Origin: Terriglobia bacterium
GTDB lineage: Bacteria; Acidobacteriota; Terriglobia; UBA7540
Length of the DNA: 24,000 nucleotides
Assembly (NCBI GenBank): GCA_050014795.1
Contig: JBEKCQ010000055.1
Coordinates: 1-24,000 of the forward strand
Direction: 5' to 3'
This document shows, one piece after another, positions 6,045-20,746 of this stretch (within the stretch, counting starts at the first letter, position 1; every line of letters begins with the position of its first letter). Made by a program: the position numbers and the translations under genes. The notes beneath the pieces are model-generated. The model did not search any database, was not told the DNA's origin, and saw only the letters and a list, made by a program, of their open reading frames with translations.

Positions 6045-6080
6045 AGAATCTGTAGCGGCGGTCTCCGACCGCCGAGGCAC

Positions 6081-6680
6081 TCATGCCGGTGGACCGGATG
6101 CAGGAGGTGGTGTGGGCTCGCCGGGCGCCAAGCCCAACTGGTTCGCGATCGTGCGCATGGCTTCGATGCAGAAAGTAATGTGCTCGTCGAGGGGGAGGCT
6201 GAGTTCCTCGGCGCCTTTAATGATGTCCTCGCGGCTCACGGCGCGCGCGAAGGCTTTGTCTTTCATCCGTTTGCGAACCGACTTGGCTTCGAGGGTGGCG
6301 ATGCGGTCGGGCCGGACGAGCGCGCAAGCCGTGATGAATCCCGCCAGCTCGTCGCACGCATAAAGCGCCTTGGCCAGCAACGTGTCGCGCGGCACGCCGG
6401 AGTAATCGGCGTGCCCCAGGATGGCGCGGCGGATTTCTTCCGAAACACCCTTCTCTTTCAGAATTTCGCTGCCCTTCACCGGGTGGTCCGGCGCGGTGGG
6501 GTAGAGTTCGTAATCAAAGTCATGTATCAATCCCACGACACCCCACTTCTCTTCGTCCTCGCCGAACTTCCGGGCATAGGCGCGCAGGCAAGCCTCGACA
6601 GCCAGCGCGTGCTTGCGCAGGTTCTCGTTCTTGGTGTACTCGCAAAGCAGGTCCCACGCCGCTTGACGGTTCATTGGCAT
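6081..6680 (-). CDS. HD/HDIG-domain phosphohydrolase
   Basis: H...GLIHDFDY and GHADYSG motifs. The start at Met18 of the track ORF (MPMNRQAAWDLL) is preceded by GGAG on the reverse strand. Confidence 0.85.
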   Translation of the reverse strand: MPMNRQAAWDLLCEYTKNENLRKHALAVEACLRAYARKFGEDEEKWGVVGLIHDFDYELYPTAPDHPVKGSEILKEKGVSEEIRRAILGHADYSGVPRDTLLAKALYACDELAGFITACALVRPDRIATLEAKSVRKRMKDKAFARAVSREDIIKGAEELSLPLDEHITFCIEAMRTIANQLGLAPGEPTPPPASGPPA

Positions 6681-6962
6681 CGCTCCTTCGATCGTGCGCG
6701 CCATTATACGCCGGGAAGCACCCCTGCCCAAGGCGAAGGCCCATAGCCCGACACCCCGCCTTAGGTGCCCTTTGTTTTCGAATACGATACGCTTCGCCTT
6801 GAATTGGAACTTTGACCAGCCGGAGGATTCTGTTGCTCACGCGCTGTAGCCAGCGATAGAATCTGCCCGAGTCGGCGCTTTCAGGAGAAGGTTCCGACAG
6901 TATCTGAGGCTTTCACCCGCTGCCGAGTCTCGCATGGCAATCTGCCCCAGGAGGTCCCTCCT

Positions 6963-8429: not shown

Positions 8430-8493
8430 GTGCGGCTCGTCGCCGCGTTGACAGGTTCGGCGAGTTGCGTTACTTTCGTGGTGTCGGTTCCTT

Positions 8494-8571
8494 AGGCCCG
8501 TAGCTCAGCCCGGTTAGAGCGCTACCTTGACACGGTAGAGGTCTGGGGTTCGAGTCCCCACGGGCCTACCA
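8494..8571 (+). tRNA. tRNA-Val (anticodon GAC), CCA encoded
   Basis: Hand-folded cloverleaf: acceptor AGGCCCG/CGGGCCT, D stem GCTC/GAGC, anticodon stem CTACC/GGTAG. The anticodon loop is TTGACAC, the T stem is TGGGG/CCCCA with TTCGAGT loop, discriminator A, then CCA. Confidence 0.9.
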
Positions 8572-8588
8572 TACGGCGTTTCAGCCCA

Positions 8589-8610
8589 TGTAGCGGAAAA
8601 TGTAGCGGGT
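8589..8610 (+). repeat. 22-nt motif TGTAGCGG-AAAA-TGTAGCGGGT, copy 1 (18 nt after the tRNA end)
   Basis: An internal tandem of TGTAGCGG with 12-nt period. It matches 17747-17768 at 18 of 22 positions, differing only in the 4-nt spacer. Confidence 0.5.
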
Positions 8611-8813
8611 ACCTGTGTTGATTGGCTTTGACTGGTTTGGGTTGGCCACGCGCAGATTCGTCACAAGAGCAAAGCTGATCGTAAGATTATATGTACTCGC
8701 CATTTATGGTTGTGTAGAATTCAGTTTAGCTGGAGACGCGGATTGTCATATAACATTCGGGACCCGGAGTAGCCGTGGCAGAGTTCTTGGCGTGCCTTCG
8801 GACGAGGCGGTGC

Positions 8814-9263
8814 ATGGGCGAGCGGCAACGGTCTCGACGTGGGAAGCGAACCGAAGCACAGATCAGCTTCAACATGTCTCGGGTGCGGAGCAGCGGGTCC
8901 AGGATCGAGCGGATGTTGGAGGAGGCTCTCCGGAAGGCTGGCGTCAGACCGAAGAAACAGGCTGCAATTGTTGGGCGACCAGACTTTGTTTTCCGTGCGG
9001 CGCGCGTGGCTGTGTTTTGCGACAGTCACTTCTGGCACGGGTACAAATGGAAAGAAAGGAAGCATGAGATAAAAAGCAATCGCAAATTCTGGTTAGAAAA
9101 GATCCAGCACAATATCAAACGGGATCGATATGTCAACCGCACGTTGAGAAGAGCAGGATGGCTGGTCGTTCGCTTCTGGCAACATCAGATCCTGCATTCG
9201 CCCAGCAAGTGCGCGGCCAAAGTCAAGCAGGTTGTTACAGCTCGAAGGACCGGACTAATTTAG
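8814..9263 (+). CDS. vsr: very-short-patch repair endonuclease (Vsr, T:G mismatch)
   Basis: RSKNMSR-like ISFNMSRVRSSGSRIE, GRPDFVF, AVFCDSHFWHG, NRKFWLEKIQHNIKRDR and GWLVVRFWQH all match Vsr family blocks. The start at ATG 8814 follows GAGG. Confidence 0.85.
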   Translation: MGERQRSRRGKRTEAQISFNMSRVRSSGSRIERMLEEALRKAGVRPKKQAAIVGRPDFVFRAARVAVFCDSHFWHGYKWKERKHEIKSNRKFWLEKIQHNIKRDRYVNRTLRRAGWLVVRFWQHQILHSPSKCAAKVKQVVTARRTGLI

Positions 9264-9265
9264 AA

Positions 9266-10357
9266 ATGGCAATCGTTGCGCTTGACCTTTTTTGCGGTTG
9301 CGGTGGGGTGACCTACGGACTTGCAAGAGCTGGAATCAAGGTCGCCTTGGGTATAGACATCGACGAGCGCTGCAGGTTTACCTTCAGACTGAACAACCCT
9401 GGGACAAACTTCCTTGTGGCTGACATCCGCGATGTTTCGGCACAGACATTACTGAAACACGTCCCCCATCTTACCGAAAGTGACTTCTTGCTGATCGCAG
9501 CATGCGCTCCTTGCCAGCCTTTCTCCTCTCAAAACAGGTCCAAGAACAAGACGTCAGGTCGTGCGATCCTGAACGAAGTAGAAAGAATAGTGCGAGAGTT
9601 GCGTCCCGAGTTCTTGTTTCTTGAAAATGTAACAGGAATACAAAAGGTTCCCGGCTTCAGTGCATTTCATCGCCTGTTGCGAGCTTTACATAACCTCAAG
9701 TACAAAGTGGAGTTTCGCAGTATTGACGCACTCTGGTATGGAATCCCGCAGAGGCGAAAGCGCCTGGTCCTCCTGGCCTCTGTTTACGGAAAGATTCCTT
9801 GGCCTGAGCAGACTCACGGTTTTGGTCCTGGGCTGCAAACGCCGGTCACGGTTCGTGAAGCGATAGCGCACTACCCGCCTTTGCAGGCGGGTGAGGCACA
9901 TCCAACAGTGCCTAACCATATCGCAGCCCGTTTGAGCCCACGCAATCTGGAGAGGATTCGCGCCACGGCTTGTGACGGCGGTAGCCGTAGCGAGTGGCCT
10001 AGACGCTTAGCTTTGTCCTGTCACGATACGCACGATGGTCACGAAGACGTGTACGGGCGGCTCCGCTGGGATGCTCTCGCGCCAACCCTCACAACCAAAT
10101 GCACAAGCATTTCCAATGGAAGATTCGGTCATCCAGACCAAGATCGCGCAATTTCTGCGCGGGAGGCTGCAGCTTTGCAGGGTTTCGACGATCGATTCGT
10201 TTTTTATGGGGGACTGCGTCAGATATCCGTTCAGATAGGAAATTCCGTTCCACCTGTTCTCGCCGAAAGATTCGGGAATGCATTCAAAGCCGAGGCTGAG
10301 GCGCTGAACGCGAACAAGAAGAGAATGAAATGGGCCTTACTCCTGGCTGGCCGATGA
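9266..10357 (+). CDS. dcm: DNA (cytosine-5)-methyltransferase
   Basis: Motif I DLFCGCGG, motif IV APCQPFS (catalytic Cys), motif VI ENV, motif VIII QRRKRL, motif X GNSVPP. The ATG lies 2 nt after the vsr stop. Confidence 0.9.
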   Translation: MAIVALDLFCGCGGVTYGLARAGIKVALGIDIDERCRFTFRLNNPGTNFLVADIRDVSAQTLLKHVPHLTESDFLLIAACAPCQPFSSQNRSKNKTSGRAILNEVERIVRELRPEFLFLENVTGIQKVPGFSAFHRLLRALHNLKYKVEFRSIDALWYGIPQRRKRLVLLASVYGKIPWPEQTHGFGPGLQTPVTVREAIAHYPPLQAGEAHPTVPNHIAARLSPRNLERIRATACDGGSRSEWPRRLALSCHDTHDGHEDVYGRLRWDALAPTLTTKCTSISNGRFGHPDQDRAISAREAAALQGFDDRFVFYGGLRQISVQIGNSVPPVLAERFGNAFKAEAEALNANKKRMKWALLLAGR

Positions 10358-10380: not shown

Positions 10381-12171
10381 CTACAAAAGGTACTGGCCTA
10401 GGTGTTCCAGAGCGTTATCGTGAACAGCCTTGATGACTTCATTTATTTTGTTTTCTACTGAATCAAAGGTCAGAGCCATCCCCTTCTTCTCCATAGCATG
10501 TAAGGCTTCCATAATTATAATGTCAACAAATCGCTGAAAGTGATACTCGCGCCATCTGGGCGATTCGGCTCCGTGCTGCCTATAGATTGCTGCAGCAAGT
10601 GGTCTGGAAGTGTTGATCCAATAGATTCCTGCGCCAACGTCTTGTGGCCGCTGGTAAACCGGGTTATGACGCGAACTCAGATCGACAGTTTGGGTGATTC
10701 CGAGAGGGTCGGGACTGTAGCTTGAAAGAAGGACTACGGGATGCCGCGTTCCTTTCTTTGGCTGGTCGCCCGCCCCTCCGCCTTTTGCGGCACCTTCACC
10801 ACCAGTGCCCCCTTTCGTTCTTGAGGAAGGACTTGTTCCACCCCCCGATCCGTCGATGCCCGTTCCCCCCGAACCAGATCCGGGTTCGGGCCCACCGAGC
10901 ACTTGAGTTAAGAGTCTATCCATAAACTGATTCTTCCAAGTGTTCAGGATTTTGTTAAATTCGTCTGTCAGCCTCAGGTTCTGAAGCGTCCGCTCTTTTG
11001 CTTCTTCCTTTTCAATCTTCTTCCCGACCTCATCAACTTGCTCTGCGATCCACCTTAAAAGCGCCCGCGTTCTGCGGTTATCTATCAGTTTTTCTCGGTC
11101 GTTCTTGACAGAATCTTCTTTTGGATCCTCAAGAATAGGGCAGAAGCATTCACCAAAAATGAACTCAGCCTGCGCGTACTGTTTGATATGCACGAGTTCT
11201 TGGATTCTATACGAGGCAATGACACCGATCTCCCCGAGGATGTCAATGCAGTTCAGTTCTGAAACGCGACTATTCCGCCCGAAAGGCTCCTTTGCAACCA
11301 TTAAGGAAAGATCGCCGGCATGGAACTTCTTGCTTGCGAACTCGATTTCCTCAACGTCCCCGTCTTCTTCGTACGGAAGGACCCGCGGAATCGGGATAGC
11401 CGGGAGGCTTTCAAATCCGGGACGGAGCTCGATTTGCTCACCCACGAGACGCTCCCAAACGAGCTCCCCGTTGTGCAACACTCTTATCGGTTTCCGTTGG
11501 ACGATCTTCCGAGCCTGCGGGTGCAACTTCATTTTCTCACAGAGTCGCGAAACCCGAATTGGACTCCGGACGCCGTCTGGCCGAATTCCACGGACGACCG
11601 TGAAACCAGTTCCTCCCGTCAAGATGCTATCTTTTGTCCTTTCTGGGAGGTCGAGCTCTCCTATCTCCGCCAGCGTCAGCGCTTCTCTTGGTGCGCAGGA
11701 CCTGTTTTGGAGCCCACGGGCGAATCCGTACCTCCTGTTCTCACTAAACCCAAACACATTCAGCATCCCGCCGCGATACGTAATGAAATAGGAGCGTTCA
11801 AACATTTGGCGCATATAGAACTTGCCACCGTTGCCGTGCCCGCCGTAGGTTCGTTTCTTGAGGCCGCGCGAAGCAGCCTTCGGGTCCCCCCAACGTTTCA
11901 AAGCCTTGTCTATATCGTCTGCAGTCATCCCGCAAAAGTCGATACACTCGAAGCTTGCAGGCTCAGTGTGTCCGGCATCCGTGAAGTTCAGCACAATGTG
12001 CTGTTGGTCATCGGGGATCGCCGGTTCCTCCCGGATGTAGGCATCGACCGAGTTCTTTATCCACTCGGGTAGGCCTTTTTCGTGGTTGAACTTGAACTCA
12101 TTTCCGATGATATCCAGAAGGTGATCGTCGATCACATTAGGCTGTTCGATTATGGAGACTTTAAGTGCCAC
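10381..12171 (-). CDS. GHKL (HATPase_c_3 / MORC-like) ATPase with Gly-rich linker and uncharacterised C-terminal domain
   Basis: Bergerat-fold motifs: N-box EWIKNSVDA, G1-like IDFCGMT, G2 YGGHGNGGKFY. A roughly 50-aa Gly/Ser/Thr linker (GGPEPGSGSGGTGIDGSGGGTSPSS...GGGAGD) precedes a roughly 115-aa C-terminal domain. The GTG start follows GAGGAGGAAA and overlaps the upstream gene by 11 nt. Confidence 0.75.
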   Translation of the reverse strand: MALKVSIIEQPNVIDDHLLDIIGNEFKFNHEKGLPEWIKNSVDAYIREEPAIPDDQQHIVLNFTDAGHTEPASFECIDFCGMTADDIDKALKRWGDPKAASRGLKKRTYGGHGNGGKFYMRQMFERSYFITYRGGMLNVFGFSENRRYGFARGLQNRSCAPREALTLAEIGELDLPERTKDSILTGGTGFTVVRGIRPDGVRSPIRVSRLCEKMKLHPQARKIVQRKPIRVLHNGELVWERLVGEQIELRPGFESLPAIPIPRVLPYEEDGDVEEIEFASKKFHAGDLSLMVAKEPFGRNSRVSELNCIDILGEIGVIASYRIQELVHIKQYAQAEFIFGECFCPILEDPKEDSVKNDREKLIDNRRTRALLRWIAEQVDEVGKKIEKEEAKERTLQNLRLTDEFNKILNTWKNQFMDRLLTQVLGGPEPGSGSGGTGIDGSGGGTSPSSRTKGGTGGEGAAKGGGAGDQPKKGTRHPVVLLSSYSPDPLGITQTVDLSSRHNPVYQRPQDVGAGIYWINTSRPLAAAIYRQHGAESPRWREYHFQRFVDIIIMEALHAMEKKGMALTFDSVENKINEVIKAVHDNALEHLGQYLL

Positions 12172-12811
12172 GAGTTTCCTCCTCGTTGCCCGATCTTGCA
12201 GATGACGTCTTCAGCCTAATCATATCTGCAAACCTCTCCACCATAAACTGATGAAACCGAGCAACAGCGACTAAGGAAAGGTCATCGGGGTTCGCATCCG
12301 ATATCTCATCCAGTGCGGATTTCACTGTTTCCAAACGCCCAATGAAATCGTTCCTCGTGGTGCGAACGCTAACACCCAGGTACTCGAACAAGTCTGAATC
12401 AATGATCTCGTCTTGCTTATTCGCGAGAAACAATTTGAAGCCCTCGAGGTGCTTTATCCTTTCTAGTTCTATCTGGGCGCCGCGTTCGATTCGGTGGCCC
12501 AGACGGGCCGAAGGGGGGCGACCCCCCTCAATAGCCTGAAGTCTTTGTACTTCTGCTAAACCGTGGGATGTCAGGGAGAACATCTTGTTCGAGGCCGAAA
12601 CCATCCCCTTTTTTCGATAATCGTAAAGGGGCTTGTGAACAATATCTCCTGAGTCTGGAAACTCAGGATGTCCTTTCAAGTGGAAGTCGCTAGCGTAGTC
12701 CCTGAACGCTTGTACGACTATATCCTCGTATCGAACCTTCCGGCGCCCCCCGTCAGAAAGGCGGTACAGACTGAGCAAAACCTTTTGCGCCATCGACAAC
12801 TGAGAGCTCAC
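12161..12811 (-). CDS. hypothetical protein (216 aa), possible N-terminal winged-helix; operon partner of the GHKL ATPase
   Basis: GTG start with an upstream GGAGGAGG/GGAAG. The N-terminus MAQKVLLSLYRLSDGGRRKVRYEDIVVQAF looks wHTH-like. There is no catalytic motif I can name. The 11-nt overlap with the GHKL gene implies co-translation. Confidence 0.6.
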   Translation of the reverse strand: MSSQLSMAQKVLLSLYRLSDGGRRKVRYEDIVVQAFRDYASDFHLKGHPEFPDSGDIVHKPLYDYRKKGMVSASNKMFSLTSHGLAEVQRLQAIEGGRPPSARLGHRIERGAQIELERIKHLEGFKLFLANKQDEIIDSDLFEYLGVSVRTTRNDFIGRLETVKSALDEISDANPDDLSLVAVARFHQFMVERFADMIRLKTSSARSGNEEETRGT

Positions 12812-12972
12812 GGCCGTTCTTCCGCCTCCTCCGACTCTGAGATATGTCCTCTTGTGCGCGAAACCAATCTTAACATATGCTCATGTCGCTGGAGAGGAAA
12901 GGCGCAGCCTCGATAGCAGCTCTCTTCCCCCCGTTTTCAAGCACGAAGAGCCTGATTGCGAAGGGCATTTGT

Positions 12973-14628
12973 ATGAATGATATTCCGGACCTTCCGGCGC
13001 ACTTGTCCCAGCGGCTAATCGGGGAACTCGACCTTTCCACACGGGCTTATAACGCTCTGAGCAAACACGGCGTGCGCACAATCAGCGATCTTGTCAAATT
13101 AAGCGACGAGGAAATGCTGCGCCTACCCTGGTTTGGTACGAAATGCCTGAATGAGGTGCACCAACTAACTCAGTCGCTCCTGCTGAGCTCAGCAAGGGAT
13201 CATGCAACTCCCAAGGAAGGCTTTGACCTTGCCGAATTAGCGCAATCGCATCCGAAAGACGCGTCCACATCCCTGCCGACGGATTATAGTCTGAGTGAGT
13301 GGGCGGTCCCAACACCGGCCAAGGGAGACTTGGATACGCCGATTGAACGCCTGCATTTGTCGCCTCGGGCGGCGAAAGTGCTTGGCTACCTTGGGATCAA
13401 GACGATTCGACAATTGCTTCGTTGCCCCAAGAATGCACTGCGCAAACAACCGAACTTTGGGCGTGTAAGCTTGTATGAGTTGGAGCGCAAAGTCTTCGAC
13501 AGCCTTGAGGGAAGTCACCAGCACGACTTCTCTCTAGGGACCAAGGCATTCACGGCAAGACTGCTTGCCTGCCTCCCCGAGCGCCAACAGAGGGTGATCG
13601 CAGATAGATACGGGCTGTGGGACGGTATTGCGGAGACACTGCAGGACATCGGAGACAAGTTGGGTCTGACGCGTGAGCGTATACGTCAAATAGAAGATAA
13701 GAGCCTTCGTCGAATTCGTGGTCGATTTGGTCTCCACATTGTAGTCGCATTTCTGCGCGCGACGTTCAGCGAGGCGCTCTCCCATCGACTTAGCGGGTGC
13801 GCTGGAATCCTAAGCGAAGACGAAGCCATGCAGGGCATGGCGAATGATTGCACCCTCGAAGAGGCGGCGCTGGCAGTTGCCTTTATGCGGGACATATGCC
13901 CGACCGAGGATGACATATTCGGGCTCTGTCTACGCAAAGTGGGGGACGGCGTCTATTGCGTAGAGCCAGAAACGGCCGAACGCTATGAGAAGGTACTCGG
14001 ATTGATCGAGAGCGGACTCGAAGGGCGTGGGGGGCCAGTAGCGGAAGGGAAACTCTGTGACGAAGTGCTGGAACGAACAAGGGCCTCTGAGCATCTTGAC
14101 TGGAGGCCGCTTATCCAGCGAGTTCTCGCCGTCTCGCCCTCTTTAACTCGCCTACGAAATGGAACTGTATGTCTCTCTGGGTGGACTGAGGTTCGCGGTC
14201 GCGATTACCCCAGTCTGGCAGTAACAGCGCTCGTCGCCCTGGGCCGTCCCGCTCACTACAAGGAGATTTGGGAGAAGGCCATGGCGCTCTATCCGCGACT
14301 AGGTGAGCTTAGTATACATGCGATTCATAACCGCCTGACTTCCAGATCGGACAAGTTCGTGTGGGTCGGGAAAGGAACTTATGGACTGAAAGCATGGGGA
14401 CTCAAAAGACCTCCGTATATAAAGGACAAACTAACGGAGCTGCTTTCGGAGGCCAAGTACCCGCTCCCTTATTGGCATCTCAAGGTCAAGGTGCTGGAGG
14501 TGTGCAACTGTAAGGAGGAATCGGTGCGCATGACGTTGGACCTGAATCCCCGCATTTTCAGGAAATTCGCAGACGACCAATATGGTCTTCGCGAGCACTA
14601 CGAGCGAAGGACCCATCGCCAAGGCTAG
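12973..14628 (+). CDS. multi-HTH protein: 2x RNA polymerase alpha-CTD-like (HhH) + sigma-70 region 4 + C-terminal HARE-HTH-like domain
   Basis: Module 1 LDLSTRAYNALSKHGVRTISDLVKLSDEEMLRLPWFGTKCLNEV and module 2 LHLSPRAAKVLGYLGIKTIRQLLRCPKNALRKQPNFGRVSLYEL resemble RpoA-CTD. LPERQQRVIADRYGLWDGIAETLQDIGDKLGLTRERIRQIEDKSLRRIR is a textbook sigma-70 region 4. The C-terminal ALGRPAHYKEIWEKAMALYPRLGELSIHAIHNRLTSRSDKFVWVGKGTYGLKAWG resembles HARE-HTH / RpoE-delta N-domain. The start is ATG 12973 (MNDIPD); the track alternative is 12877. Confidence 0.7.
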   Translation: MNDIPDLPAHLSQRLIGELDLSTRAYNALSKHGVRTISDLVKLSDEEMLRLPWFGTKCLNEVHQLTQSLLLSSARDHATPKEGFDLAELAQSHPKDASTSLPTDYSLSEWAVPTPAKGDLDTPIERLHLSPRAAKVLGYLGIKTIRQLLRCPKNALRKQPNFGRVSLYELERKVFDSLEGSHQHDFSLGTKAFTARLLACLPERQQRVIADRYGLWDGIAETLQDIGDKLGLTRERIRQIEDKSLRRIRGRFGLHIVVAFLRATFSEALSHRLSGCAGILSEDEAMQGMANDCTLEEAALAVAFMRDICPTEDDIFGLCLRKVGDGVYCVEPETAERYEKVLGLIESGLEGRGGPVAEGKLCDEVLERTRASEHLDWRPLIQRVLAVSPSLTRLRNGTVCLSGWTEVRGRDYPSLAVTALVALGRPAHYKEIWEKAMALYPRLGELSIHAIHNRLTSRSDKFVWVGKGTYGLKAWGLKRPPYIKDKLTELLSEAKYPLPYWHLKVKVLEVCNCKEESVRMTLDLNPRIFRKFADDQYGLREHYERRTHRQG

Positions 14629-14813
14629 GCTCGTCTGTTTCTGCAAGCGCACAATCGCATTGAGGGTATGACCTGCAATCGAGCTCATATTCAAGCACTC
14701 ACGCGCAGGGTTCGCCTCGCGCCCCTCCCTGCTGAGCAAAAGCTTGAAGTACCGCAATGATAGACGTAATCTTACGGAAACTCGCGACCCAGATAGCTGC
14801 AAAGGAGAGGAGG

Positions 14814-15611
14814 ATGGGCCACCAAATGCTACTTAATCGTGACGAAATCATGAGCAATGAGGTCATCCGGAATGGCGCCGAGAGTGCCTATCGCGCTGCA
14901 AGCTACGACCTGCGAGTCGGAAGAATCCTCACAACCTCTGGGGAGGAAAAGACGACCTTCATAATTCCGCCTCAAGGCATGGTTGACGTAATCTCACAGG
15001 AGAGGGTCATTTTGAAAGGGAGCATCGCCGGGTATGCTACGGTGAAAACGAGCTTGTGCCGGAATGGCATCCTCGCGATAAACATCGGGATTATTGACCC
15101 CGGTTATGAAGGGCTCATCTCCAGCACCCTCATAAACTTCAGCAAATGCCCATTCGCTCTCAGAGCCGGCGACCCTTTCCTTCGACTCACATTCCATCAG
15201 TACACTGCGCCCCGAACCCTTCCGGCTGCTCCATCCAAGGGGGATGAGGAATACGTTCAAGAACGAAAGAAGATGGTGCAAGAACGATTCTCTGCCACGT
15301 TTCTGGATGTCCCTCAGACGATTGAAAACTTGACCCCACCCTTAATCAAAAGGGTTCTAGATGATTGGAAGAGTGCTCTTTACAAGTGGGCACCGCTTTT
15401 TGCCTTCGTTATTGCTCTGCTCGCCTTTCTTGTGAACGTTGGTGCCACTCGCTTCGGGCAGCCCAAGGTGTCGAAGGAGCAATTAAAGGCAGAGGTGGTT
15501 GCCGAAATTCGCGATGAGAACCACAGGATTTTTGAAGAACGCCTGCAGCAAGTGGAGCGGCAGACTCAGCAATTACTTACTGAGAGGGAGCATCAGAAAA
15601 AGGTACAGTGA
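14814..15611 (+). CDS. dCTP deaminase/dUTPase-fold (Dcd-like) protein with C-terminal TM helix and coiled coil
   Basis: ASYDLRVG, VKTSLCRNG and IGIIDPGYEG...ALRAGDPFLRLTF align without effort to E. coli Dcd blocks (ATVDVRLG, GRSSLARLG, RIDPGWSG...ALRPGMLIGALSF). A hydrophobic helix WAPLFAFVIALLAFLVNVGA (nt 15387-15446) is followed by a charged heptad-like tail. The ATG 14814 is preceded by AAGGAGAGGAGG. Confidence 0.75.
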   Translation: MGHQMLLNRDEIMSNEVIRNGAESAYRAASYDLRVGRILTTSGEEKTTFIIPPQGMVDVISQERVILKGSIAGYATVKTSLCRNGILAINIGIIDPGYEGLISSTLINFSKCPFALRAGDPFLRLTFHQYTAPRTLPAAPSKGDEEYVQERKKMVQERFSATFLDVPQTIENLTPPLIKRVLDDWKSALYKWAPLFAFVIALLAFLVNVGATRFGQPKVSKEQLKAEVVAEIRDENHRIFEERLQQVERQTQQLLTEREHQKKVQ

Positions 15612-15637: not shown

Positions 15638-16630
15638 GTGGACAGCTTCGATTCCGTCGACGAGATTCAAAAGTGGGTTCTGGAATCATTGCTGGCACGG
15701 GGTGGCTCAACTCGGCCACGTGGTTCGGCCACACTTGAACTATTCCCAGTCTCGTTCATGCTTCGACATCCACGAATGAGATGTGTTACGAACCCGGCGA
15801 GACGATGGATTTTGCCATTGGCCCTGGGGGAATTTTGCTGGCACCTCTCCGGCTCAAATGATGTTCACTTCATCGAATATTACTCCAAACGCTGGAGAGA
15901 ATTCGCAGAGAGCGGTTCCTCGACCATCTGTGGCAGCTCTTATGGTCATAAGATATTTTCCCGAAGCGCCGGTGAACCCAGTCAATGGGACCGGCTTGTC
16001 GAGCTACTGCGAGTCGACCAACAATCGAGGCGTGCAGTGCTTGGTCTCTTCGACCCGGCTCGTGGCCTCAATCAAGATGAGAGAGATGTTGCCTGCGCCT
16101 GCTCCTTGCAGCTCATGATTCGGTCTGGTCGGCTCTTAGCCTTTGTCTACATGCGGAGCAATGATGCCATCTGGGGTCTGCCTTACGACATTTTCTTTTT
16201 CACTATGCTCCAGGAGTTGCTTGCCTGCGAGCTTGGCTTAGAACTTGGCTATTATTATCACTTCGCGGCTTCGCTTCACCTCTACGAACGTCACTTTGAA
16301 CTTGCCCACCGAATCGTTGAGACCGAGCCAGGTTCGCACTTTGAAATGCCACCGATGAGTGTGCACAAACAGGTTGACGATTTTCTGCGATTGGAGGCCG
16401 TACTCAGGTCCAGGCACGAGCTGTTACCCCGGCAGGTCGGAACGCTACATCCCTACTGGCGTGATTTGCTGGCCGTACTCGAGTGGTATAGTCAGGCAAA
16501 GGGTGCCGGGGGTTATCAAGCGGTGGCTGAGAAGGTTCCTACACCGTCCCCATATGGTCTGCTGTTGAGAAATATGTTGCCCAAAGCAGAGGCGGGAACG
16601 CGTGCCTATGCGGCGGATTATTCAGATTGA
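15638..16630 (+). CDS. thymidylate synthase (ThyA) family enzyme, predicted deoxycytidylate-specific (hydroxymethylase or methylase type)
   Basis: Gap-free block YMRSNDAIWGLPYDIFFFTMLQELLACELGLELGYYYHFAASLHLYERH against E. coli ThyA [50 protein letters not shown]. Also a catalytic Cys block VACACSLQLMI, SRRAV (phosphate-binding Arg pair) and LGEFCWHL (Glu). The GTG start follows GGAAAGGAAG. There is a roughly 90-aa C-terminal extension. Confidence 0.8.
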   Translation: MDSFDSVDEIQKWVLESLLARGGSTRPRGSATLELFPVSFMLRHPRMRCVTNPARRWILPLALGEFCWHLSGSNDVHFIEYYSKRWREFAESGSSTICGSSYGHKIFSRSAGEPSQWDRLVELLRVDQQSRRAVLGLFDPARGLNQDERDVACACSLQLMIRSGRLLAFVYMRSNDAIWGLPYDIFFFTMLQELLACELGLELGYYYHFAASLHLYERHFELAHRIVETEPGSHFEMPPMSVHKQVDDFLRLEAVLRSRHELLPRQVGTLHPYWRDLLAVLEWYSQAKGAGGYQAVAEKVPTPSPYGLLLRNMLPKAEAGTRAYAADYSD

Positions 16631-17099
16631 GGCTCACGCAAAGTTCCTGCAAATAGCTAAGCGCGTGAGTTTAGGGTCGAACTGTGTGCGTGGCCAAGTT
16701 GGAGTCGTGCTTGTCCAGGGGGGCAAGATTGTTTCGACGGGCTGGAACGGGGTGCCGACATCATTTCGCGATTGCCTTTCCGCAGGCTGTCCGCGATGCA
16801 AGCACCGGACTTCCACGGGAAGAGGGTATGACCGGTGTATCTGCGTCCACGCTGAACAGAGCGCCATTGCTACGGCTGCCCGCAACGGAATTCCTCTGAG
16901 GAGTGCAACAATGTATGTGAATCTCCGCCCTTGCCTTGGGTGCCTGAATCTGGCACTCACAGCCGGTGTTCGGAAAATCGTCTATGAAGTATCATGGACA
17001 TATCCAAGCAACATAGAGGCAGCCTATGAGAGGATTGCCAAAAGGCTGTCGTCTTTCCTTCGCGTCGATTCTCGTCGGAATAAGGCTGGAATTCGATGA
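16602..17099 (+). CDS. dCMP deaminase (ComEB / deoxycytidylate deaminase family, zinc-dependent)
   Basis: CVHAEQSAI (HAE) and RPCLGC (PCxxC) zinc motifs, plus an upstream Cys cluster CLSAGCPRCKH typical of dCMP deaminases. It is a single 165-aa domain. The start (GTG 16602 or ATG 16608) overlaps the 3' end of the ThyA-like gene. Confidence 0.85.
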   Translation: MPMRRIIQIEAHAKFLQIAKRVSLGSNCVRGQVGVVLVQGGKIVSTGWNGVPTSFRDCLSAGCPRCKHRTSTGRGYDRCICVHAEQSAIATAARNGIPLRSATMYVNLRPCLGCLNLALTAGVRKIVYEVSWTYPSNIEAAYERIAKRLSSFLRVDSRRNKAGIR

Positions 17100-17230: not shown

Positions 17231-17527
17231 TCAATTCGTTAGATGGCTGCCTACATCGGCGTTCTGTGCGAAGGCCTGCTTGTGGTGAAATGCCCGCCTG
17301 AATGCTTCGAGCTTCCGGATTGCGTCCCGCCGGTACTCGTCGATGACCTTGGCGTACGTCTGCAAGATGCCAGCAGATGAGTGCCCCATCATTTGAGCCA
17401 CGAAGAGATCCGGCGTCCCTGAAGCACTCAGCCTGCTGGCCACTGTGGCTTGGAGGTTGTGGCTAGCGTTGATGCCGCCCCTACTGGCGGCCGTCGCCCA
17501 TCTTACTGTGACTGGGACGACGTGTAG
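17231..17527 (-). pseudogene. tyrosine recombinase 3' remnant (C-terminal ~98 codons only)
   Basis: The reverse strand reads ...INASHNLQATVASRLSASGTPDLFVAQMMGHSSAGILQTYAKVIDEY.... This is a degenerate HxLRHT box (SHNLQAT) followed by the GHSS...Y catalytic-Tyr box. An in-frame stop at 17528-17530 bounds the frame, and no N-terminal two-thirds exists before the next gene. Confidence 0.65.
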
Positions 17528-17686: not shown

Positions 17687-18811
17687 TTATTGTACAACAA
17701 GTTGCGGCCTTCTTTCCTGCCCGCCAATTCCAGATTGGAGGGCAGTTGTAGCGGCTTTTGTAGCGGGTTCAGCCACTTTCCCAGGTGCCAGAATCAGTTC
17801 TACGGCCTTTCTTTTCAATTCGTTAGCGGGGTGCATGTAGCGGCGTGTCATCACAATTGACGCGTGCCCCGCCAGTTCTTGAATCACTGCCAGCGGCACA
17901 CCGGCGTCACTGAGACGCGAGCAAAAGGTGTGGCGCAGCTGGTGAAAAGTGATATGCGGAATTTCGGCAATCTTAACCGCCCGGCAGAAGGAATGTTTGA
18001 TATCTCCAACATGCTCCTTGGAGTTCTTTGGTGAAGGGAACACCCACTCGCCCTCGACCTCTTCGCGCCACTGTTGCAGCGTTGCGCGCAGCACCGCGTT
18101 CACGTACATCACCCGCCCTTGGCCTGCCCTGGTCTTCGACTTCCGCACGATCAGAATGCCGTTGTCCAGGTCGATGTCGGCCCAGCGTAGTCGAAGGATT
18201 TCGCCGCGCCGGAGGCCCGTATACACGGCCACCAAGATAATCGGCTTCAGGTGCGGTGCGAGGAAATGCAGTTCCGGGTGGTCACAGGCCTGCAGGAGCT
18301 TCGCCTCTTCCTCATACGAAAGGACGCGCTCGACTGGCGGTCCGTCCAGCTTGAATAGTTTGGCGTCACGGGCGCCGTTGGTTTCGACCAACTCCCACTT
18401 CACCGCCGTGCTCAGCATGCTTTTGACCAGGCCGACCTCACGGTTGATTGAAGATTTCTTCAAGCCCGCGTCCAGGCGCTTCTGCTTGAATTTCTCCACG
18501 GTGTAAGCTGAGATTTCATTCAACCTGTACCGCCCGAGGAACGGAACCAAGGCACGCGGGACGTAGTACCTTTCTACCGTGAAGGCCGGTTTGTTGGCTT
18601 CGCTGTATTTCAGGTAGCGAGCGGCAAAGTCAGAAAACTTCGGATTCTCCTTCTTCGCCAGGCCGTGTTTCCCAAGGGCCAGCTGGGCCTTGTGAACCGA
18701 CTCAATCCTGAGTGCCATCTTGCGGCTTGTCAGTTTCGTTGGCCGCTGGATATGCTGGCCTTCGAACCAGAAGTGGTACCACCAGACTCCCCCGCGCTTG
18801 TAGATGCTCAT
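17687..18811 (-). CDS. int: site-specific tyrosine integrase
   Basis: MSIYKRGGVWWYHFWFEGQ N-terminus, Arg box GLRRGEILRLRW, HQLRHTFCSRL, and LAGHASIVMTRRYMH (catalytic Tyr). The ATG 18811 is preceded by GAGGGAGAAG. Confidence 0.9.
   Translation of the reverse strand: MSIYKRGGVWWYHFWFEGQHIQRPTKLTSRKMALRIESVHKAQLALGKHGLAKKENPKFSDFAARYLKYSEANKPAFTVERYYVPRALVPFLGRYRLNEISAYTVEKFKQKRLDAGLKKSSINREVGLVKSMLSTAVKWELVETNGARDAKLFKLDGPPVERVLSYEEEAKLLQACDHPELHFLAPHLKPIILVAVYTGLRRGEILRLRWADIDLDNGILIVRKSKTRAGQGRVMYVNAVLRATLQQWREEVEGEWVFPSPKNSKEHVGDIKHSFCRAVKIAEIPHITFHQLRHTFCSRLSDAGVPLAVIQELAGHASIVMTRRYMHPANELKRKAVELILAPGKVAEPATKAATTALQSGIGGQERRPQLVVQ
17747..17768 (+). repeat. 22-nt motif TGTAGCGG-CTTT-TGTAGCGGGT, copy 2 (inside the integrase 3' coding end)
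   Basis: Matches 8589-8610 at 18 of 22 positions. On the reverse strand it encodes PATKAATT, about 20 codons before the int stop. Confidence 0.5.
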
Positions 18812-18995
18812 TTTCTTCTCCCTCAACGGGCTGACGATGCTGATCGACGAATTCCTCCAGGTCACTTTCGCGGAATCGCACCAGGCGGCCAATCTTGCGG
18901 TGGGAAATCCGCCTCTGGGCGACCCAGAGGTAGAGCGTTTGCGGTTTCACCCCCAGCTTGGCGGCGGCTTCTGCAATGGTTAGAAGCTTTTCCAT
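18702..18995 (-). CDS. xis: excisionase / HTH_17 (MerR-like) DNA-binding protein
   Basis: MEKLLTIAEAAAKLGVKPQTLYLWVAQRRISHRKIGRLVRFRESDLEEFV is a typical excisionase-family HTH. The ATG 18995 is preceded by GGGGGTGGG. The reading frame continues 110 nt past the int start. Confidence 0.75.
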   Translation of the reverse strand: MEKLLTIAEAAAKLGVKPQTLYLWVAQRRISHRKIGRLVRFRESDLEEFVDQHRQPVEGEENEHLQARGSLVVPLLVRRPAYPAANETDKPQDGTQD

Positions 18996-20447: not shown

Positions 20448-20746
20448 GACGAATCCCCCTCCACAAGATGTGCTGTTTGGAGTCTACACGAGACGAGAAC
20501 GATTCGGCACTGCTCCCTGCTAGGTGCGAAATGCAGGGCATGTTTTGACCCCATTACGTGAATTCACGCCTTTCCCCCCCTCTGATATTCCTCCTCATGG
20601 CAAGAACATTTCTCGAGTAGGCGAGACAGTTCTTCGGCCGAAAGTAAATTGAATTGGAAGCGGCGCCAGGCAGCGCCGGCAGTTTTTCCCACCTCCTGGG
20701 TTCTGCCACGCTGCCTGGCGTCGGCCAAAAAACTCAGGAGGGGTTC

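What the first reader, a model, noticed from the sequence alone, without database searches (positions are those of the whole stretch)
15638..16630. ThyA-family enzyme carries Asp at the position of the dUMP-specifying Asn (predicted cytosine specificity)
The block RSNDAIWGLPYD aligns without gaps to E. coli ThyA [12 protein letters not shown] (R166...N177). This puts Asp184 (GAC, nt 16187-16189) at the position of Asn177. In thymidylate synthases that Asn reads the uracil O4/N3. T4 dCMP hydroxymethylase has Asp there, and Asn-to-Asp mutants of ThyA switch preference toward dCMP. The phosphate-binding residues (SRRAV pair, RS), the catalytic Cys block (VACACSLQ, with Cys153 by Gln spacing) and the folate-contacting Asp176 are retained, so an active dCMP-modifying enzyme is plausible. 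A roughly 90-aa C-terminal extension (from about aa 240) has no counterpart in ThyA as I recall it.
Basis: partly seen in the sequence, partly recalled or inferred. Interest (0 to 1): 0.75.

Follow-up and report, generated by a model that had tools for sequence, protein, structure and literature searches.

The report
Bacterial dCMP hydroxymethylase gene cassette
A gene auto-labelled "thymidylate synthase" is most likely an enzyme that adds a hydroxymethyl group to the DNA building block dCMP, as phage T4 does, and it belongs to a small, widespread, apparently undescribed bacterial gene cassette whose partner is a membrane-anchored nucleotide-splitting protein.

Summary
ORF 15638-16630 encodes a 330-aa ThyA-fold protein with Asp184 (GAC, 16187-16189) at the position of E. 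coli ThyA Asn177. That Asp is invariant in 32/32 close and 46/46 distant homologs.

The protein is not a ThyA. Its nearest characterised relative, over the full length including the "C-terminal extension", is MilA, a CMP 5-hydroxymethylase (E 6e-44; TM 0.85-0.88).

It carries the published hydroxymethylase signature (D150-x-x-C153 and S100-x-Y102). It also has the deoxyribose-type residues (S174, R131) in place of MilA's ribose-type Ala/Lys, and it keeps D176. The predicted reaction is therefore dCMP to 5-hydroxymethyl-dCMP. No activity was measured.

The new part is the context. The gene is translationally coupled to an upstream DCD-fold protein in 27-29 of 32 loci across many phyla. That protein lacks the deaminase Glu, resembles archaeal dUTPases most closely, and always carries a transmembrane helix and a coiled coil. 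A dCMP deaminase follows in 12/32 loci, including here. Dcm/Vsr modules are enriched nearby (13/32 against 2/47), also here.

The cassette sits on a decayed tRNA-Val island. Its likely role, diverting or marking the dC nucleotide pool in genetic conflict, is an inference.

The parts
15638..16630 (+). TS-fold, MilA-clade pyrimidine hydroxymethylase-like gene (330 aa); predicted dCMP 5-hydroxymethylase
   Evidence: PF00303 E 1e-25. Best PDB match is MilA at E 6e-44. AF2 model pLDDT 92; Foldseek to MilA gives TM 0.85-0.88 over 317 columns.
16187..16189 (+). Asp184 codon (GAC) at the position of ThyA Asn177, T4 dCH Asp179 and MilA Asp186; the cytosine determinant
   Evidence: Invariant in 28/28, 32/32 and 46/46 homologs. 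PMC5175136, PMC6400193.
16085..16096 (+). D150-V-A-C153: Asp three residues before the catalytic Cys (ThyA Leu143 position); hydroxymethylase signature
   Evidence: D150 and C153 are present in 32/32 type A homologs. Signature defined in PMC6400193 and PMC13326640.
15935..15943 (+). S100-S-Y102: the Ser-x-Tyr half of the dCH signature
   Evidence: S100 is present in 30/32 and Y102 in 32/32 type A homologs. PMC6400193.
16028..16033 (+). R131-R132 (ThyA R126/R127). R131 sits at the position of MilA Lys133, so this is the deoxyribose-type residue
   Evidence: PMC5175136.
16154..16165 (+). R173-S174-N175-D176. S174 sits at the position of MilA Ala176 (deoxy type). D176 equals ThyA D169 and is retained, so this is not the 5-hydroxy-dCMP synthase D169N type
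   Evidence: PMC5175136 and PMC13326640.
16364..16570 (+). C-terminal helical domain (aa 243-311), equivalent to MilA helices alpha9-alpha13; the last ~19 aa are disordered
   Evidence: helices 243-257, 264-268, 272-290, 294-299, 307-311. (full-length MilA alignment). (MilA extra domain).
14814..15611 (+). Partner gene: DCD/dUTPase-fold domain plus transmembrane helix plus coiled coil (265 aa; the longest ORF starts at 14757). Predicted membrane-anchored pyrimidine dNTP pyrophosphatase-like protein
   Evidence: PF22769. Lacks Dcd Glu138 and dUTPase Asp90 equivalents. Best structures are archaeal dUTPases 8y1w and 9ln0. Found immediately upstream of the TS-like gene in 27-29 of 32 loci.
15390..15446 (+). 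Transmembrane segment of the partner (APLFAFVIALLAFLVNVGA)
   Evidence: Kyte-Doolittle 19-mer score of 2.33; an equivalent segment is present in 34/34 family members.
16602..17099 (+). dCMP deaminase-family gene (165 aa; HAE at aa 83, PCLGC at aa 110). It overlaps the TS-like stop by 29 nt (23 nt if it starts at ATG 16608)
   Evidence: PF00383 E 4.5e-19. Best PDB match is T4 Cd, 1vq2. Motifs. A deaminase is present in 12/32 type A loci and 0/47 type B loci.
8775..9263 (+). Vsr mismatch endonuclease gene (recurrent neighbour)
   Evidence: PF03852 E 7.5e-16. Vsr occurs in 6 type A neighbourhoods.
9158..10357 (+). C5-cytosine DNA methyltransferase (Dcm type; recurrent neighbour)
   Evidence: PF00145 E 2.5e-49. 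PADLOC MTase_II. Found within 4 kb in 13/32 type A loci against 2/47 type B loci, p = 7e-5.
8494..8571 (+). tRNA-Val marking the left border of the low-GC island
   Evidence: GC drops from ~0.62 to 0.51-0.56 after 9 kb.
17231..17443 (-). Integrase C-terminal fragment; probable right end of the decayed island that carries the cassette

Best explanation
The ORF encodes a MilA-clade member of the thymidylate-synthase superfamily. It most likely uses methylene-tetrahydrofolate to convert dCMP into 5-hydroxymethyl-dCMP. The inferred mechanism is as follows. Cys153 attacks C6 of the base. Asp184 reads and protonates the cytosine N3/N4 face. After folate elimination, a water molecule activated by Asp150, with help from Ser100 and Tyr102, adds to the exocyclic methylene, so no hydride transfer occurs. 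Ser174 and Arg131 favour deoxyribose over ribose. The gene is the second member of a tightly coupled operon. The first gene encodes a membrane-anchored trimeric-barrel (DCD/dUTPase-fold) protein that cannot be a canonical dCTP deaminase and most resembles archaeal dUTPases. I infer that it hydrolyses a pyrimidine dNTP, most plausibly dCTP, to the monophosphate and so feeds the hydroxymethylase. The third gene, present in about 40% of loci, is a T4-Cd-like dCMP deaminase that could convert 5hm-dCMP to 5hm-dUMP or dCMP to dUMP. Together the three genes mirror the T4 set gp56 + gp42 + Cd, but they lack a kinase and a glucosyltransferase and they sit on bacterial genomic islets. The most likely biological role is irreversible diversion or marking of the dC nucleotide pool in a conflict with phages or other mobile DNA. 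What is shown: homology, residue signatures, fold, operon conservation and island location. What is inferred: all substrates, all products and the biological role.
For: Enzyme identity: the MilA match (E 6e-44) is far stronger than the ThyA matches (1e-17 or weaker). Foldseek gives TM 0.85-0.88 to MilA over 317 columns, against TMq 0.55-0.63 for ThyAs. NCBIfam ThyA equivalog scores are far below cutoff, 73 bits against 327. Signatures: D184, D150, C153, S174 and R131 are present in 32/32 type A homologs and S100 in 30/32. Their meaning comes from PMC5175136, PMC6400193 and PMC13326640. Operon: the DCD-like gene lies directly upstream with gaps of -4 to +24 nt in nearly all of 27 measured loci, which come from Acidobacteriota, Myxococcota, Bacteroidota, Proteobacteria, Cyanobacteria and others. 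Partner: it lacks Glu138, and its best structural matches are the Thermococcus and P45 dUTPases; a transmembrane segment is present in 34/34 members. Deaminase: it has HAE and PCxxC motifs and resembles T4 Cd, and it is enriched at 12/32 against 0/47. Mobile context: a low-GC island at tRNA-Val with integrase remnants, and a sporadic phyletic spread. Precedent: a distantly related TS-like hydroxymethylase operon, DS-4, protected E. coli from phages experimentally (PMC13092281; 24% identity, E 1e-23).
Against: No biochemical data exist for any member of this family. The signature rules come from T4 dCH and MilA mutagenesis and may not transfer. The partner also lacks the classical dUTPase catalytic Asp, and that position varies across the family, so it could be a non-catalytic nucleotide sensor. 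No dNMP kinase is present, so the fate of 5hm-dCMP is unclear. Apart from Dcm/Vsr, the neighbourhoods are mostly housekeeping genes and not classical defence islands. The TS-like and DCD-like proteins hit no PADLOC model. The membrane anchor and the Dcm/Vsr linkage are not explained by the model.
Confidence: 0.55

Rival explanations
1. The cassette is a DNA-modification module. The 5hm-dCMP, or 5hm-dUMP after deamination, is phosphorylated by host kinases and incorporated into the DNA of the host or the island as 5hmC or 5hmU. This would act as an epigenetic or self-marking layer alongside Dcm methylation and Vsr repair.
For: Dcm/Vsr modules are specifically enriched next to the cassette, and no other methylase class recurs. 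A 5-hmdU DNA kinase gene lies directly downstream of the TS-like gene in L080 and appears in two GTDB loci. The distantly related type B cassettes carry an aGPT-Pplase/amino-acid:DNA transferase, which is a DNA hypermodification enzyme.
Against: No dedicated dNMP kinase, glycosyltransferase or polymerase is present. Phage T4 needs its own kinase for hm-dCMP (established knowledge). Most loci consist of only the bare two-gene pair. 5hmC has not been reported in bacterial chromosomes (my knowledge). A membrane anchor is not expected for such a pathway.
Confidence: 0.2
2. The enzyme is a dCMP methyltransferase that makes 5-methyl-dCMP. With the deaminase this gives a ThyA-independent route to dTMP (dCTP to dCMP to 5m-dCMP to dTMP), or it supplies 5-methyl-dCTP.
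For: ThyA Asn-to-Asp mutants methylate dCMP (PMC13326640). The 5mC theme fits the Dcm/Vsr association. dCMP deaminases of other organisms accept 5-methyl-dCMP (established knowledge).
Against: D150 and S100 form the hydroxymethylase signature, and T4 dCH D145N is inactive. The hydrophobic Leu143/Trp83 pair is absent, and so is the ThyA C-terminal tail that closes the folate site for hydride transfer. The closest characterised relative, MilA, is a hydroxymethylase.
Confidence: 0.1
3. The enzyme acts like MilA or BcmA in making a nucleoside natural product or antimetabolite, with 5-hydroxymethylcytosine as a building block.
For: MilA is the nearest characterised relative by a wide margin, including its unusual C-terminal domain.
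Against: The ribose-specifying Ala176/Lys133 pair is replaced by Ser/Arg in 32/32 members. No MilB-like N-glycosidase or tailoring genes are present in the window or recur in 32 loci. The conserved partner is a dNTP-binding fold. The cassette occurs as a two- to three-gene islet in many phyla.
Confidence: 0.08
4. It is an ordinary thymidylate synthase, as it is annotated in all source databases.
For: It matches PF00303, and the sources name it 'thymidylate synthase'.
Against: Asn177 is replaced by an invariant Asp and Leu143 by an invariant Asp. The ThyA C-terminal tail is absent. All NCBIfam ThyA equivalog scores are far below cutoff. MilA is a much closer relative than any ThyA.
Confidence: 0.03

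Closest known systems
MilA, CMP 5-hydroxymethylase of mildiomycin biosynthesis (Streptomyces rimofaciens; PDB 5b6d, 5jnh, 5jp9, 5b6e); BcmA is its relative
   Same: Closest by both sequence and structure: E 6e-44, about 33% identity, TM 0.85-0.88 over the full length. It shares the C-terminal five-helix domain, the Asp at the N177 position, and the Asp three residues before the catalytic Cys.
   Different: MilA has Ala176/Lys133, which give it its CMP preference. This family has Ser174/Arg131 invariantly, which is the combination that converts MilA to dCMP use. It has no MilB partner and no antibiotic gene cluster. It is paired instead with a DCD-fold membrane protein.
Phage T4 gp42 dCMP hydroxymethylase, together with the T4 module gp56 dCTPase and Cd dCMP deaminase
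   Same: Same predicted chemistry and the same signature residues: Asp179 corresponds to D184, Asp145-x-x-Cys148 to D150-x-x-C153, and Ser94-x-Tyr96 to S100-x-Y102. The three-gene logic is the same (dNTPase, hydroxymethylase, deaminase), and the deaminase's best solved relative is T4 Cd.
   Different: It is encoded in bacterial chromosomes and islands, not in phages; the best phage homologs are only 31-37% identical. It has the MilA-type C-terminal domain. The dNTPase is a DCD-fold membrane protein, whereas to my knowledge gp56 belongs to a different, all-alpha NTP pyrophosphatase fold. There is no dNMP kinase and no glucosyltransferase.
DS-4 (DefensePredictor, Science 2026): TS + dNMP kinase + 5-hmdU-DNA-kinase-like + TIR operon, experimentally anti-phage in E. 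coli
   Same: It is a bacterial accessory operon built around a TS-superfamily enzyme that has Asp at the Leu143 position and a long helical C-terminus. The two TS proteins are distant homologs (24% identity, E 1e-23).
   Different: The DS-4 TS keeps Asn at position 177, so it is uracil type. Its partner genes are entirely different. None of them occurs in this window, although an HMUDK gene does occur in a few type A loci.
Anti-phage dCTP deaminase / AvcD nucleotide-depletion systems
   Same: The theme is the same, an attack on the dC nucleotide pool, and the deaminase domain matches the deaminase core of those proteins.
   Different: Those are single large proteins with an N-terminal kinase-like or P-loop domain. 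Here the deaminase is a standalone 165-aa dCMP-deaminase type (65 bits against a cutoff of 400) and is dispensable. The core of this cassette is a dNTPase-like protein plus a hydroxymethylase.
Archaeal DCD-family dUTPases (Thermococcus pacificus dUTPase 8y1w; P45 dUTPase 9ln0), as the closest relatives of the partner protein
   Same: They are the best sequence and structure matches of the partner's N-terminal domain (E 3e-13; Foldseek E 1.5e-11, TMt 0.80). Both lack the Dcd catalytic Glu.
   Different: The partner carries about 130 extra residues: a linker, a transmembrane helix and a coiled coil, present in 34/34 members. Its substrate is unknown.

Membership tests
Thymidylate synthase ThyA (EC 2.1.1.45) | TS fold with catalytic Cys146, the phosphate-binding Arg quartet and Glu58 | tested here: met
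   PF00303 E 1e-25. C153, R28, R131, R132, R173 and E65 align to the ThyA residues.
Thymidylate synthase ThyA (EC 2.1.1.45) | Asn177 reading uracil O4/N3 | tested here: not met
   Asp184 occupies this position and is invariant in the family.
Thymidylate synthase ThyA (EC 2.1.1.45) | Hydrophobic Leu143/Trp83 that exclude water, and a C-terminal tail that closes over the folate for hydride transfer | tested here: not met
   Leu143 is replaced by D150 and Trp83 by F89. [quoted passage not shown]
Thymidylate synthase ThyA (EC 2.1.1.45) | Score above the curated equivalog cutoffs | tested here: not met
   The best NCBIfam ThyA model gives 73 bits against a cutoff of 327.
dCMP hydroxymethylase (functional class of T4 gp42, EC 2.1.2.8) | Asp at the ThyA-N177 position (T4 Asp179) | tested here: met
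   D184. PMC6400193.
dCMP hydroxymethylase (functional class of T4 gp42, EC 2.1.2.8) | [quoted passage not shown] | tested here: met
   D150-V-A-C153, present in 32/32 type A homologs.
dCMP hydroxymethylase (functional class of T4 gp42, EC 2.1.2.8) | Ser or Thr two residues before the catalytic Tyr | tested here: met
   S100-S-Y102; Ser is present in 30/32 type A homologs.
dCMP hydroxymethylase (functional class of T4 gp42, EC 2.1.2.8) | Deoxyribose-type Ser (ThyA S167) and Arg (ThyA R126') | tested here: met
   S174 and R131, both present in 32/32. The rule comes from PMC5175136.
dCMP hydroxymethylase (functional class of T4 gp42, EC 2.1.2.8) | Formation of 5hm-dCMP and THF from dCMP and CH2-THF | not testable with these tools
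   This needs an enzyme assay.
MilA/BcmA CMP hydroxymethylases | Overall sequence and fold, including the C-terminal five-helix domain | tested here: met
MilA/BcmA CMP hydroxymethylases | Ala176 and Lys133, which confer ribose (CMP) preference | tested here: not met
   Ser174 and Arg131 occupy these positions.
MilA/BcmA CMP hydroxymethylases | Co-location with a MilB/BcmB-type hmCMP N-glycosidase and antibiotic tailoring genes | tested here: not met
   No such domain occurs in the window or among 142 neighbour ORFs of 32 loci.
5-hydroxy-dCMP synthases (RB69 gp48 / DLP3 gp80 type) | Asn in place of ThyA Asp169 | tested here: not met
   D176 is retained in 32/32. The rule comes from PMC13326640.
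dCTP deaminase Dcd (for the upstream partner) | Catalytic Glu138 together with Ser111 and Arg115 | tested here: not met
   The Glu position is Thr in the window and variable across the family; the Arg115 position is also variable.
Trimeric dUTPase (for the upstream partner) | Motif 3 catalytic Asp (E. coli Dut Asp90) | tested here: not met
   The position is Gly in the window and variable (G/S/E/H/T/C/Q/D) in the family. The archaeal DCD-family dUTPases that are its closest relatives also have Gly at this position.
Anti-phage dCTP deaminase (NF041025 / PADLOC dCTPase) (for the downstream deaminase) | Full-length architecture of about 440-630 aa, with an N-terminal domain plus the deaminase | tested here: not met
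   Only the deaminase core matches (aa 75-128). The score is 65 bits against a cutoff of 400, and the protein is 165 aa long.
DS-4 defence system (DefensePredictor) | TS + dNMP kinase + 5hmdU-kinase-like + TIR operon | tested here: not met
   None of those partner domains is present in the window. The DS-4 TS has Asn at position 177.

The most novel reading that the evidence does not exclude
The two-gene core is a previously undescribed bacterial conflict system. It consists of a membrane-anchored DCD-fold dNTPase-like protein with an external coiled coil and a MilA-clade dCMP hydroxymethylase. The membrane protein would sense or localise to phage or foreign-DNA entry and release dCMP from dCTP. 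The hydroxymethylase, optionally helped by a deaminase, would lock that dCMP irreversibly as 5hm-dCMP or 5hm-dUMP. This would either starve invading replication of dCTP or load newly made DNA with 5-hydroxymethyl-pyrimidines that downstream factors act on, such as Dcm/Vsr-linked nucleases or 5-hmdU DNA kinases. In effect, bacteria would be turning the T4 hmC pathway against invaders.
Probability: 0.3. Interest if true: 0.8.

Novelty: new variant of a known kind. Interest (0 to 1): 0.62.

Why it matters
Hundreds of proteins in public databases are labelled "thymidylate synthase" although every diagnostic residue says they act on dCMP and add a hydroxymethyl group. That is a systematic annotation error, and it affects metabolic reconstructions. 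If the prediction holds, dCMP hydroxymethylation occurs outside phage genomes and antibiotic pathways: it would be a widespread, horizontally mobile bacterial trait. The fixed pairing with a membrane-anchored dUTPase-like protein, and the specific linkage to cytosine-C5 methylase/Vsr modules, point to an unexplored piece of cytosine-nucleotide biology. It could be a new nucleotide-pool immune mechanism, or a route to 5hmC or 5hmU in bacterial DNA. A distantly related TS-like operon, DS-4, has just been shown to protect E. coli from phages without a known mechanism, so this simpler cassette could be a tractable model. The enzymes may also be useful for making 5hm-dC nucleotides.

Tried and rejected
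- **Plain ThyA:** rejected on residues, fold and model scores.
- **5-hydroxy-dCMP synthase:** rejected because D176 is retained.
- **CMP-specific MilA orthologue in an antibiotic cluster:** rejected because of Ser174/Arg131 and the absence of MilB or tailoring genes.
- **Upstream gene as a canonical dCTP deaminase, as annotated:** rejected because the Glu138 equivalent is missing throughout the family.
- **Known defence system:** the TS-like and DCD-like proteins have no PADLOC hit. DS-4 and the predicted dUTPase/aGPT-Pplase systems of DefensePredictor have different architectures.
- **Recent phage or plasmid origin:** the best phage hits are 31-37% identical and the best plasmid hits 32-37%.
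- **Generic defence-island context:** not supported. Apart from Dcm/Vsr and the deaminase, the neighbours are heterogeneous housekeeping genes.
- **The αCTD/σ-region-4 protein and the two unknown minus-strand genes as conserved members:** rejected, since they were not found in the other 79 loci.
- **Regulatory RNA or antitoxin-like element:** Rfam found only the tRNA, and promoter and terminator scans were at background.
- **att repeats of the tRNA 3' end:** none found. The only repeat is a 32-nt imperfect repeat inside the integrase copies.
- **Source contig look-up for the exact protein:** failed.
- **Literature:** five full-text searches found no description of this cassette. The library holds only open-access papers and preprints, so this absence is weak evidence.
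- **First attempt at the pooled neighbour scan:** it exceeded the residue limit and was repeated without the seven largest ORFs.
Full report
**Observation**

The ORF at 15638-16630 (+) is real. It has a GTG start preceded by GGAAAGGAAG and it matches Pfam Thymidylat_synt with E 1.2e-25. The block RSNDAIWGLPYD is aa 173-184, and codon 16187-16189 is GAC, which gives Asp184.

In a MAFFT alignment with E. coli ThyA, the residues correspond as follows:
- D184 aligns with N177.
- C153 aligns with C146.
- R173/S174 align with R166/S167.
- D176 aligns with D169.
- R131/R132 align with R126/R127.
- R28 aligns with R21.
- E65 aligns with E58.
- Y102 aligns with Y94.
- H214/Y216 align with H207/Y209.

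Every numbered residue came out as the expected letter, which checks the sequence. The HMMER alignments to PDB ThyA chains show the same register.

The Asp is not a one-off. It is invariant in 28 database homologs at 45-60% identity and in all 78 homologs recovered from named genomes.

**What the protein is**

It is not a thymidylate synthase in the strict sense. All NCBIfam ThyA equivalog models score far below their cutoffs; the best gives 73 bits against 327.

The closest solved protein by a wide margin is MilA, the CMP 5-hydroxymethylase of mildiomycin biosynthesis. MilA scores E 6e-44 with aa 26-287 aligned, whereas true ThyAs score 1e-17 or weaker. An AlphaFold2 model built on the family alignment is confident, with pLDDT 92 and pTM 0.91. 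It superposes on MilA over its full length (TM 0.85-0.88, 317 columns, 33% identity). ThyAs cover only about 230-270 columns, with TMq 0.55-0.63.

**Predicted chemistry**

Three published residue rules can be read off the alignment.

1. *Base.* Asp at the ThyA-N177 position marks cytosine-using enzymes (T4 dCH Asp179, MilA Asp186, BcmA). Uracil users have Asn (PMC5175136). ThyA N177D prefers dCMP (PMC13326640), and T4 dCH D179N is nearly dead (PMC6400193).
2. *Product.* Hydroxymethylases have Asp or Glu three residues before the catalytic Cys. This residue activates the substrate water, and T4 D145N is inactive. They also have Ser or Thr two residues before the catalytic Tyr. ThyA has Leu143 and Val at these positions (PMC6400193; PMC13326640). 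The window protein has D150-V-A-C153 and S100-S-Y102. In its own subfamily D150 is present in 32/32 members and S100 in 30/32. Asp176, the equivalent of ThyA D169, is retained, so the D169N signature of the newly described 5-hydroxy-dCMP synthases is absent.
3. *Sugar.* MilA and BcmA have Ala176/Lys133. Deoxyribose users have Ser/Arg, and MilA A176S/K133R loses CMP activity while keeping dCMP activity. The window family has Ser174/Arg131 in 32/32 members.

Taken together, the predicted reaction is dCMP + CH2-THF + H2O giving 5-hydroxymethyl-dCMP + THF. This is inference from signatures; nothing was assayed.

**Genomic context in the window**

The gene is the middle one of three co-directional, closely spaced genes.

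*Upstream gene.* It runs from the likely start ATG 14814 (with an AGGAGAGGAGG ribosome-binding site) to 15611; the longest ORF starts at 14757. It encodes a DCD/dUTPase-fold domain (PF22769), followed by a hydrophobic helix and a long coiled coil.

*Downstream gene.* At 16602-17099, overlapping the TS-like stop, lies a 165-aa dCMP-deaminase-family protein with intact HAE and PCxxC motifs. Its best solved relative is the phage T4 Cd deaminase.

*The island.* The three genes lie in a low-GC island (0.51-0.56, against about 0.62 for the flanking DNA). The island starts right after tRNA-Val at 8494-8571. It also holds:
- Vsr (8775-9263) and a Dcm-type C5 methylase (9158-10357).
- Two overlapping unknown genes on the other strand.
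- An odd protein made of two RNAP αCTD copies plus σ70 region 4.

An integrase fragment (17231-17443) closes this island. A second integrase and an AEP-type primase element follow it.

**Conservation of the cassette**

A degenerate-pattern scan of one genome per GTDB species returned 79 loci from many phyla. Comparing the neighbours shows two architectures.

*Type A.* This is the window's group: 32 loci with TS identity of 38-58%. The DCD-like gene lies immediately upstream. By tblastn or clustering it is present in 29 loci, and one further locus is cut by a contig end. The stop-to-start distances are mostly -4 to +24 nt in 27 measured pairs, which indicates translational coupling.

A scan of 142 neighbouring ORFs against Pfam and PADLOC found these recurrent companions:
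- dCMP deaminases (12).
- C5 DNA methylases (11).
- Vsr (6).
- A few M78-peptidase/HTH pairs.
- 5-hmdU DNA kinase (2).

The rest are unrelated housekeeping genes.

Using type B as a rough control, Dcm lies within 4 kb in 13/32 type A loci against 2/47 (Fisher p = 7e-5). The deaminase is found in 12/32 against 0/47 (p = 4e-6). Four additional contexts with independent gene calls show the bare two-gene pair wedged between housekeeping genes. In Melittangium boletus, for example, it sits between ruvABC/yebC and rtcBA. In one of the four, a 5-hmdU DNA kinase gene follows directly.

*Type B.* These loci have 31-40% identity and include Bordetella bronchiseptica, Pseudomonas huaxiensis and Sorangium cellulosum. 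The TS-like gene also has Asp at the N177 position (46/46), but Ala or Gly replaces Ser100. It is linked to an unknown 267-aa gene and an aGPT-Pplase3/amino-acid:DNA-transferase gene, with a divergent M78-peptidase-like gene and a small gene on the other strand. Type B is a different system, and I note it only in passing.

**The partner protein**

It is annotated "dCTP deaminase" or "dUTPase" by the sources. The Dcd catalytic Glu138 position is Thr here and varies across the family, as does the Arg115 position. The classical dUTPase Asp90 position is also variable.

Its best matches by sequence (E 3e-13) and by structure (Foldseek E 1.5e-11, TMt 0.80) are the Thermococcus pacificus dUTPase (8y1w) and the "P45" thermostable dUTPase (9ln0). 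These are DCD-family enzymes that hydrolyse dUTP without deamination and also lack the Glu. Bifunctional DCD-DUT enzymes and E. coli Dcd come next.

The deoxyribose-contacting IDPGY motif and the K-T-S phosphate loop are conserved. All 34 family members examined have a strongly hydrophobic 19-mer at about residues 181-211, with more Lys/Arg on its N-terminal side, followed by a coiled coil and often a Pro/Ala-rich tail.

I therefore read the partner as a bitopic membrane protein with a cytoplasmic trimeric dNTP-binding, probably dNTP-pyrophosphatase, domain. That dCTP is the substrate is inferred only from the partner enzyme's predicted need for dCMP.

**Mechanistic proposal**

The proposed pathway is:
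1. dCTP to dCMP, by the DCD-like dNTPase.
2. dCMP to 5hm-dCMP, by the MilA-clade hydroxymethylase.
3. 5hm-dCMP to 5hm-dUMP, by the optional deaminase.

This is the same enzyme logic as T4 gp56 + gp42 + Cd, but it lacks the kinase and the glucosyltransferases that T4 needs to put hmC into DNA. A dCTPase alone would be futile, because CMP kinase and NDK rebuild dCTP. Adding C5 hydroxymethylation or deamination makes the drain irreversible. That offers a rationale for the fixed pairing, though it is my inference.

Several observations fit an accessory function in genetic conflict:
- The sporadic, multi-phylum distribution.
- The small size of the cassette.
- Its location on an island.
- The link to Dcm/Vsr.

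There is also an experimental precedent for a TS-like hydroxymethylase operon acting in defence. DS-4 of DefensePredictor (TS + dNMP kinase + 5hmdU-kinase-like + TIR) protected E. coli from phages (PMC13092281). Its TS is a distant homolog (24% identity, E 1e-23), but it keeps Asn177 and has Asp at position 143, so it is a uracil-type hydroxymethylase.

**What argues against the proposal or remains open**
- No member of the family has been assayed.
- The partner may be a sensor and not an enzyme.
- The neighbourhoods are not classical defence islands.
- PADLOC has no model for either core protein.
- The membrane anchor and the specific Dcm/Vsr association are unexplained.

The main rival is that 5hm-pyrimidines end up in DNA. 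That reading is encouraged by the HMUDK genes in a few loci and by the Dcm/Vsr theme, and it would be more surprising still. The other rivals are a dCMP methyltransferase, a MilA-like natural-product role, and a plain ThyA. The residue evidence contradicts each of them to an increasing degree.

**Comparison with what is known, and novelty**

At the enzyme level this is a new member of a known kind: a MilA-clade enzyme with T4-dCH-type signatures that is mis-annotated as thymidylate synthase. At the operon level I found no description of this cassette. PADLOC 2.0, NCBIfam, the DefensePredictor lists and five full-text searches all came up empty. The paper library is open-access only, so that absence is weak evidence. 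I rate the finding as a new variant of a known kind.

**Verdict**

The more interesting result is the conserved cassette: membrane dNTPase-like protein, hydroxymethylase, optional deaminase, and its linkage to Dcm/Vsr. My confidence falls with each level of inference:

| Claim | Confidence |
|---|---|
| Enzyme assignment | about 0.7 |
| Three-step pathway | about 0.45 |
| Conflict or defence role | about 0.3 |

Interest: 0.62.

Noticed in passing
window 12877-14628 (+): A 583-aa protein with two RNA-polymerase alpha C-terminal domains, a sigma-70 region 4 and about 300 aa of unknown C-terminus. It gives weak partial hits to MzaA (MZA anti-phage system) and BREX PglW. It lies immediately upstream of the cassette but is not conserved in the other loci.
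   Followed up: partly
window 10381-12171 (-) and 12161-12811 (-): An overlapping two-gene operon (596 aa and 216 aa) between the Dcm gene and the cassette. It has no hit in Pfam, NCBIfam, PADLOC, PHROGs or PDB sequences. It may be the restriction partner of the Dcm/Vsr module, or something new.
   Followed up: partly
L031-L079 (e.g. L068:5944-10108, Bordetella bronchiseptica; L069, Pseudomonas huaxiensis; L075, Sorangium cellulosum): A second conserved cassette ('type B'). It contains a TS-like gene with Asp at the N177 position (46/46) but Ala/Gly in place of Ser100. With it come an unknown ~267-aa gene, an aGPT-Pplase3/amino-acid:DNA-transferase gene, and a divergent M78-peptidase-like gene plus a ~110-aa gene. 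A cytosine-type TS paired with an enzyme known from thymidine hypermodification is odd.
   Followed up: partly
window 17231-17443 (-), 17687-18892 (-), 20654-23122 (+): An integrase C-terminal fragment lies next to a full tyrosine integrase, with a 32-nt imperfect repeat at 17231-17262 and 17815-17846. An AEP-TOTE/PriCT/DUF3631 primase follows. This looks like two islands inserted in tandem at tRNA-Val, the first one decayed.
   Followed up: partly
L080:9049-9999 (+); also two of the GTDB type A loci: A 5-hmdU DNA kinase (HMUDK_hel) gene lies directly downstream of the DCD-like and TS-like pair. This hints that in some variants a 5-hydroxymethyl-pyrimidine reaches DNA and is processed further.
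   Followed up: no
L046 and L047 (Streptococcus), about 6001-8800: Two TS-like paralogs (303 and 328 aa) lie in tandem, separated by a 201-aa gene, in yet another architecture without the DCD-like partner.
   Followed up: no
window 14757-14813: The longest ORF of the DCD-like gene starts at ATG 14757. The ribosome-binding site (AGGAGAGGAGG), the public gene call (P0121, 265 aa) and the family alignment all favour ATG 14814 or the ATG at 14826.
   Followed up: yes
supplement of PMC13092281 (not in the window): DefensePredictor gave a high defence score to a second E. coli protein, WP_000174035.1 (326 aa), which is annotated as thymidylate synthase and was not tested. I could not determine whether it belongs to type A or type B.
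   Followed up: no
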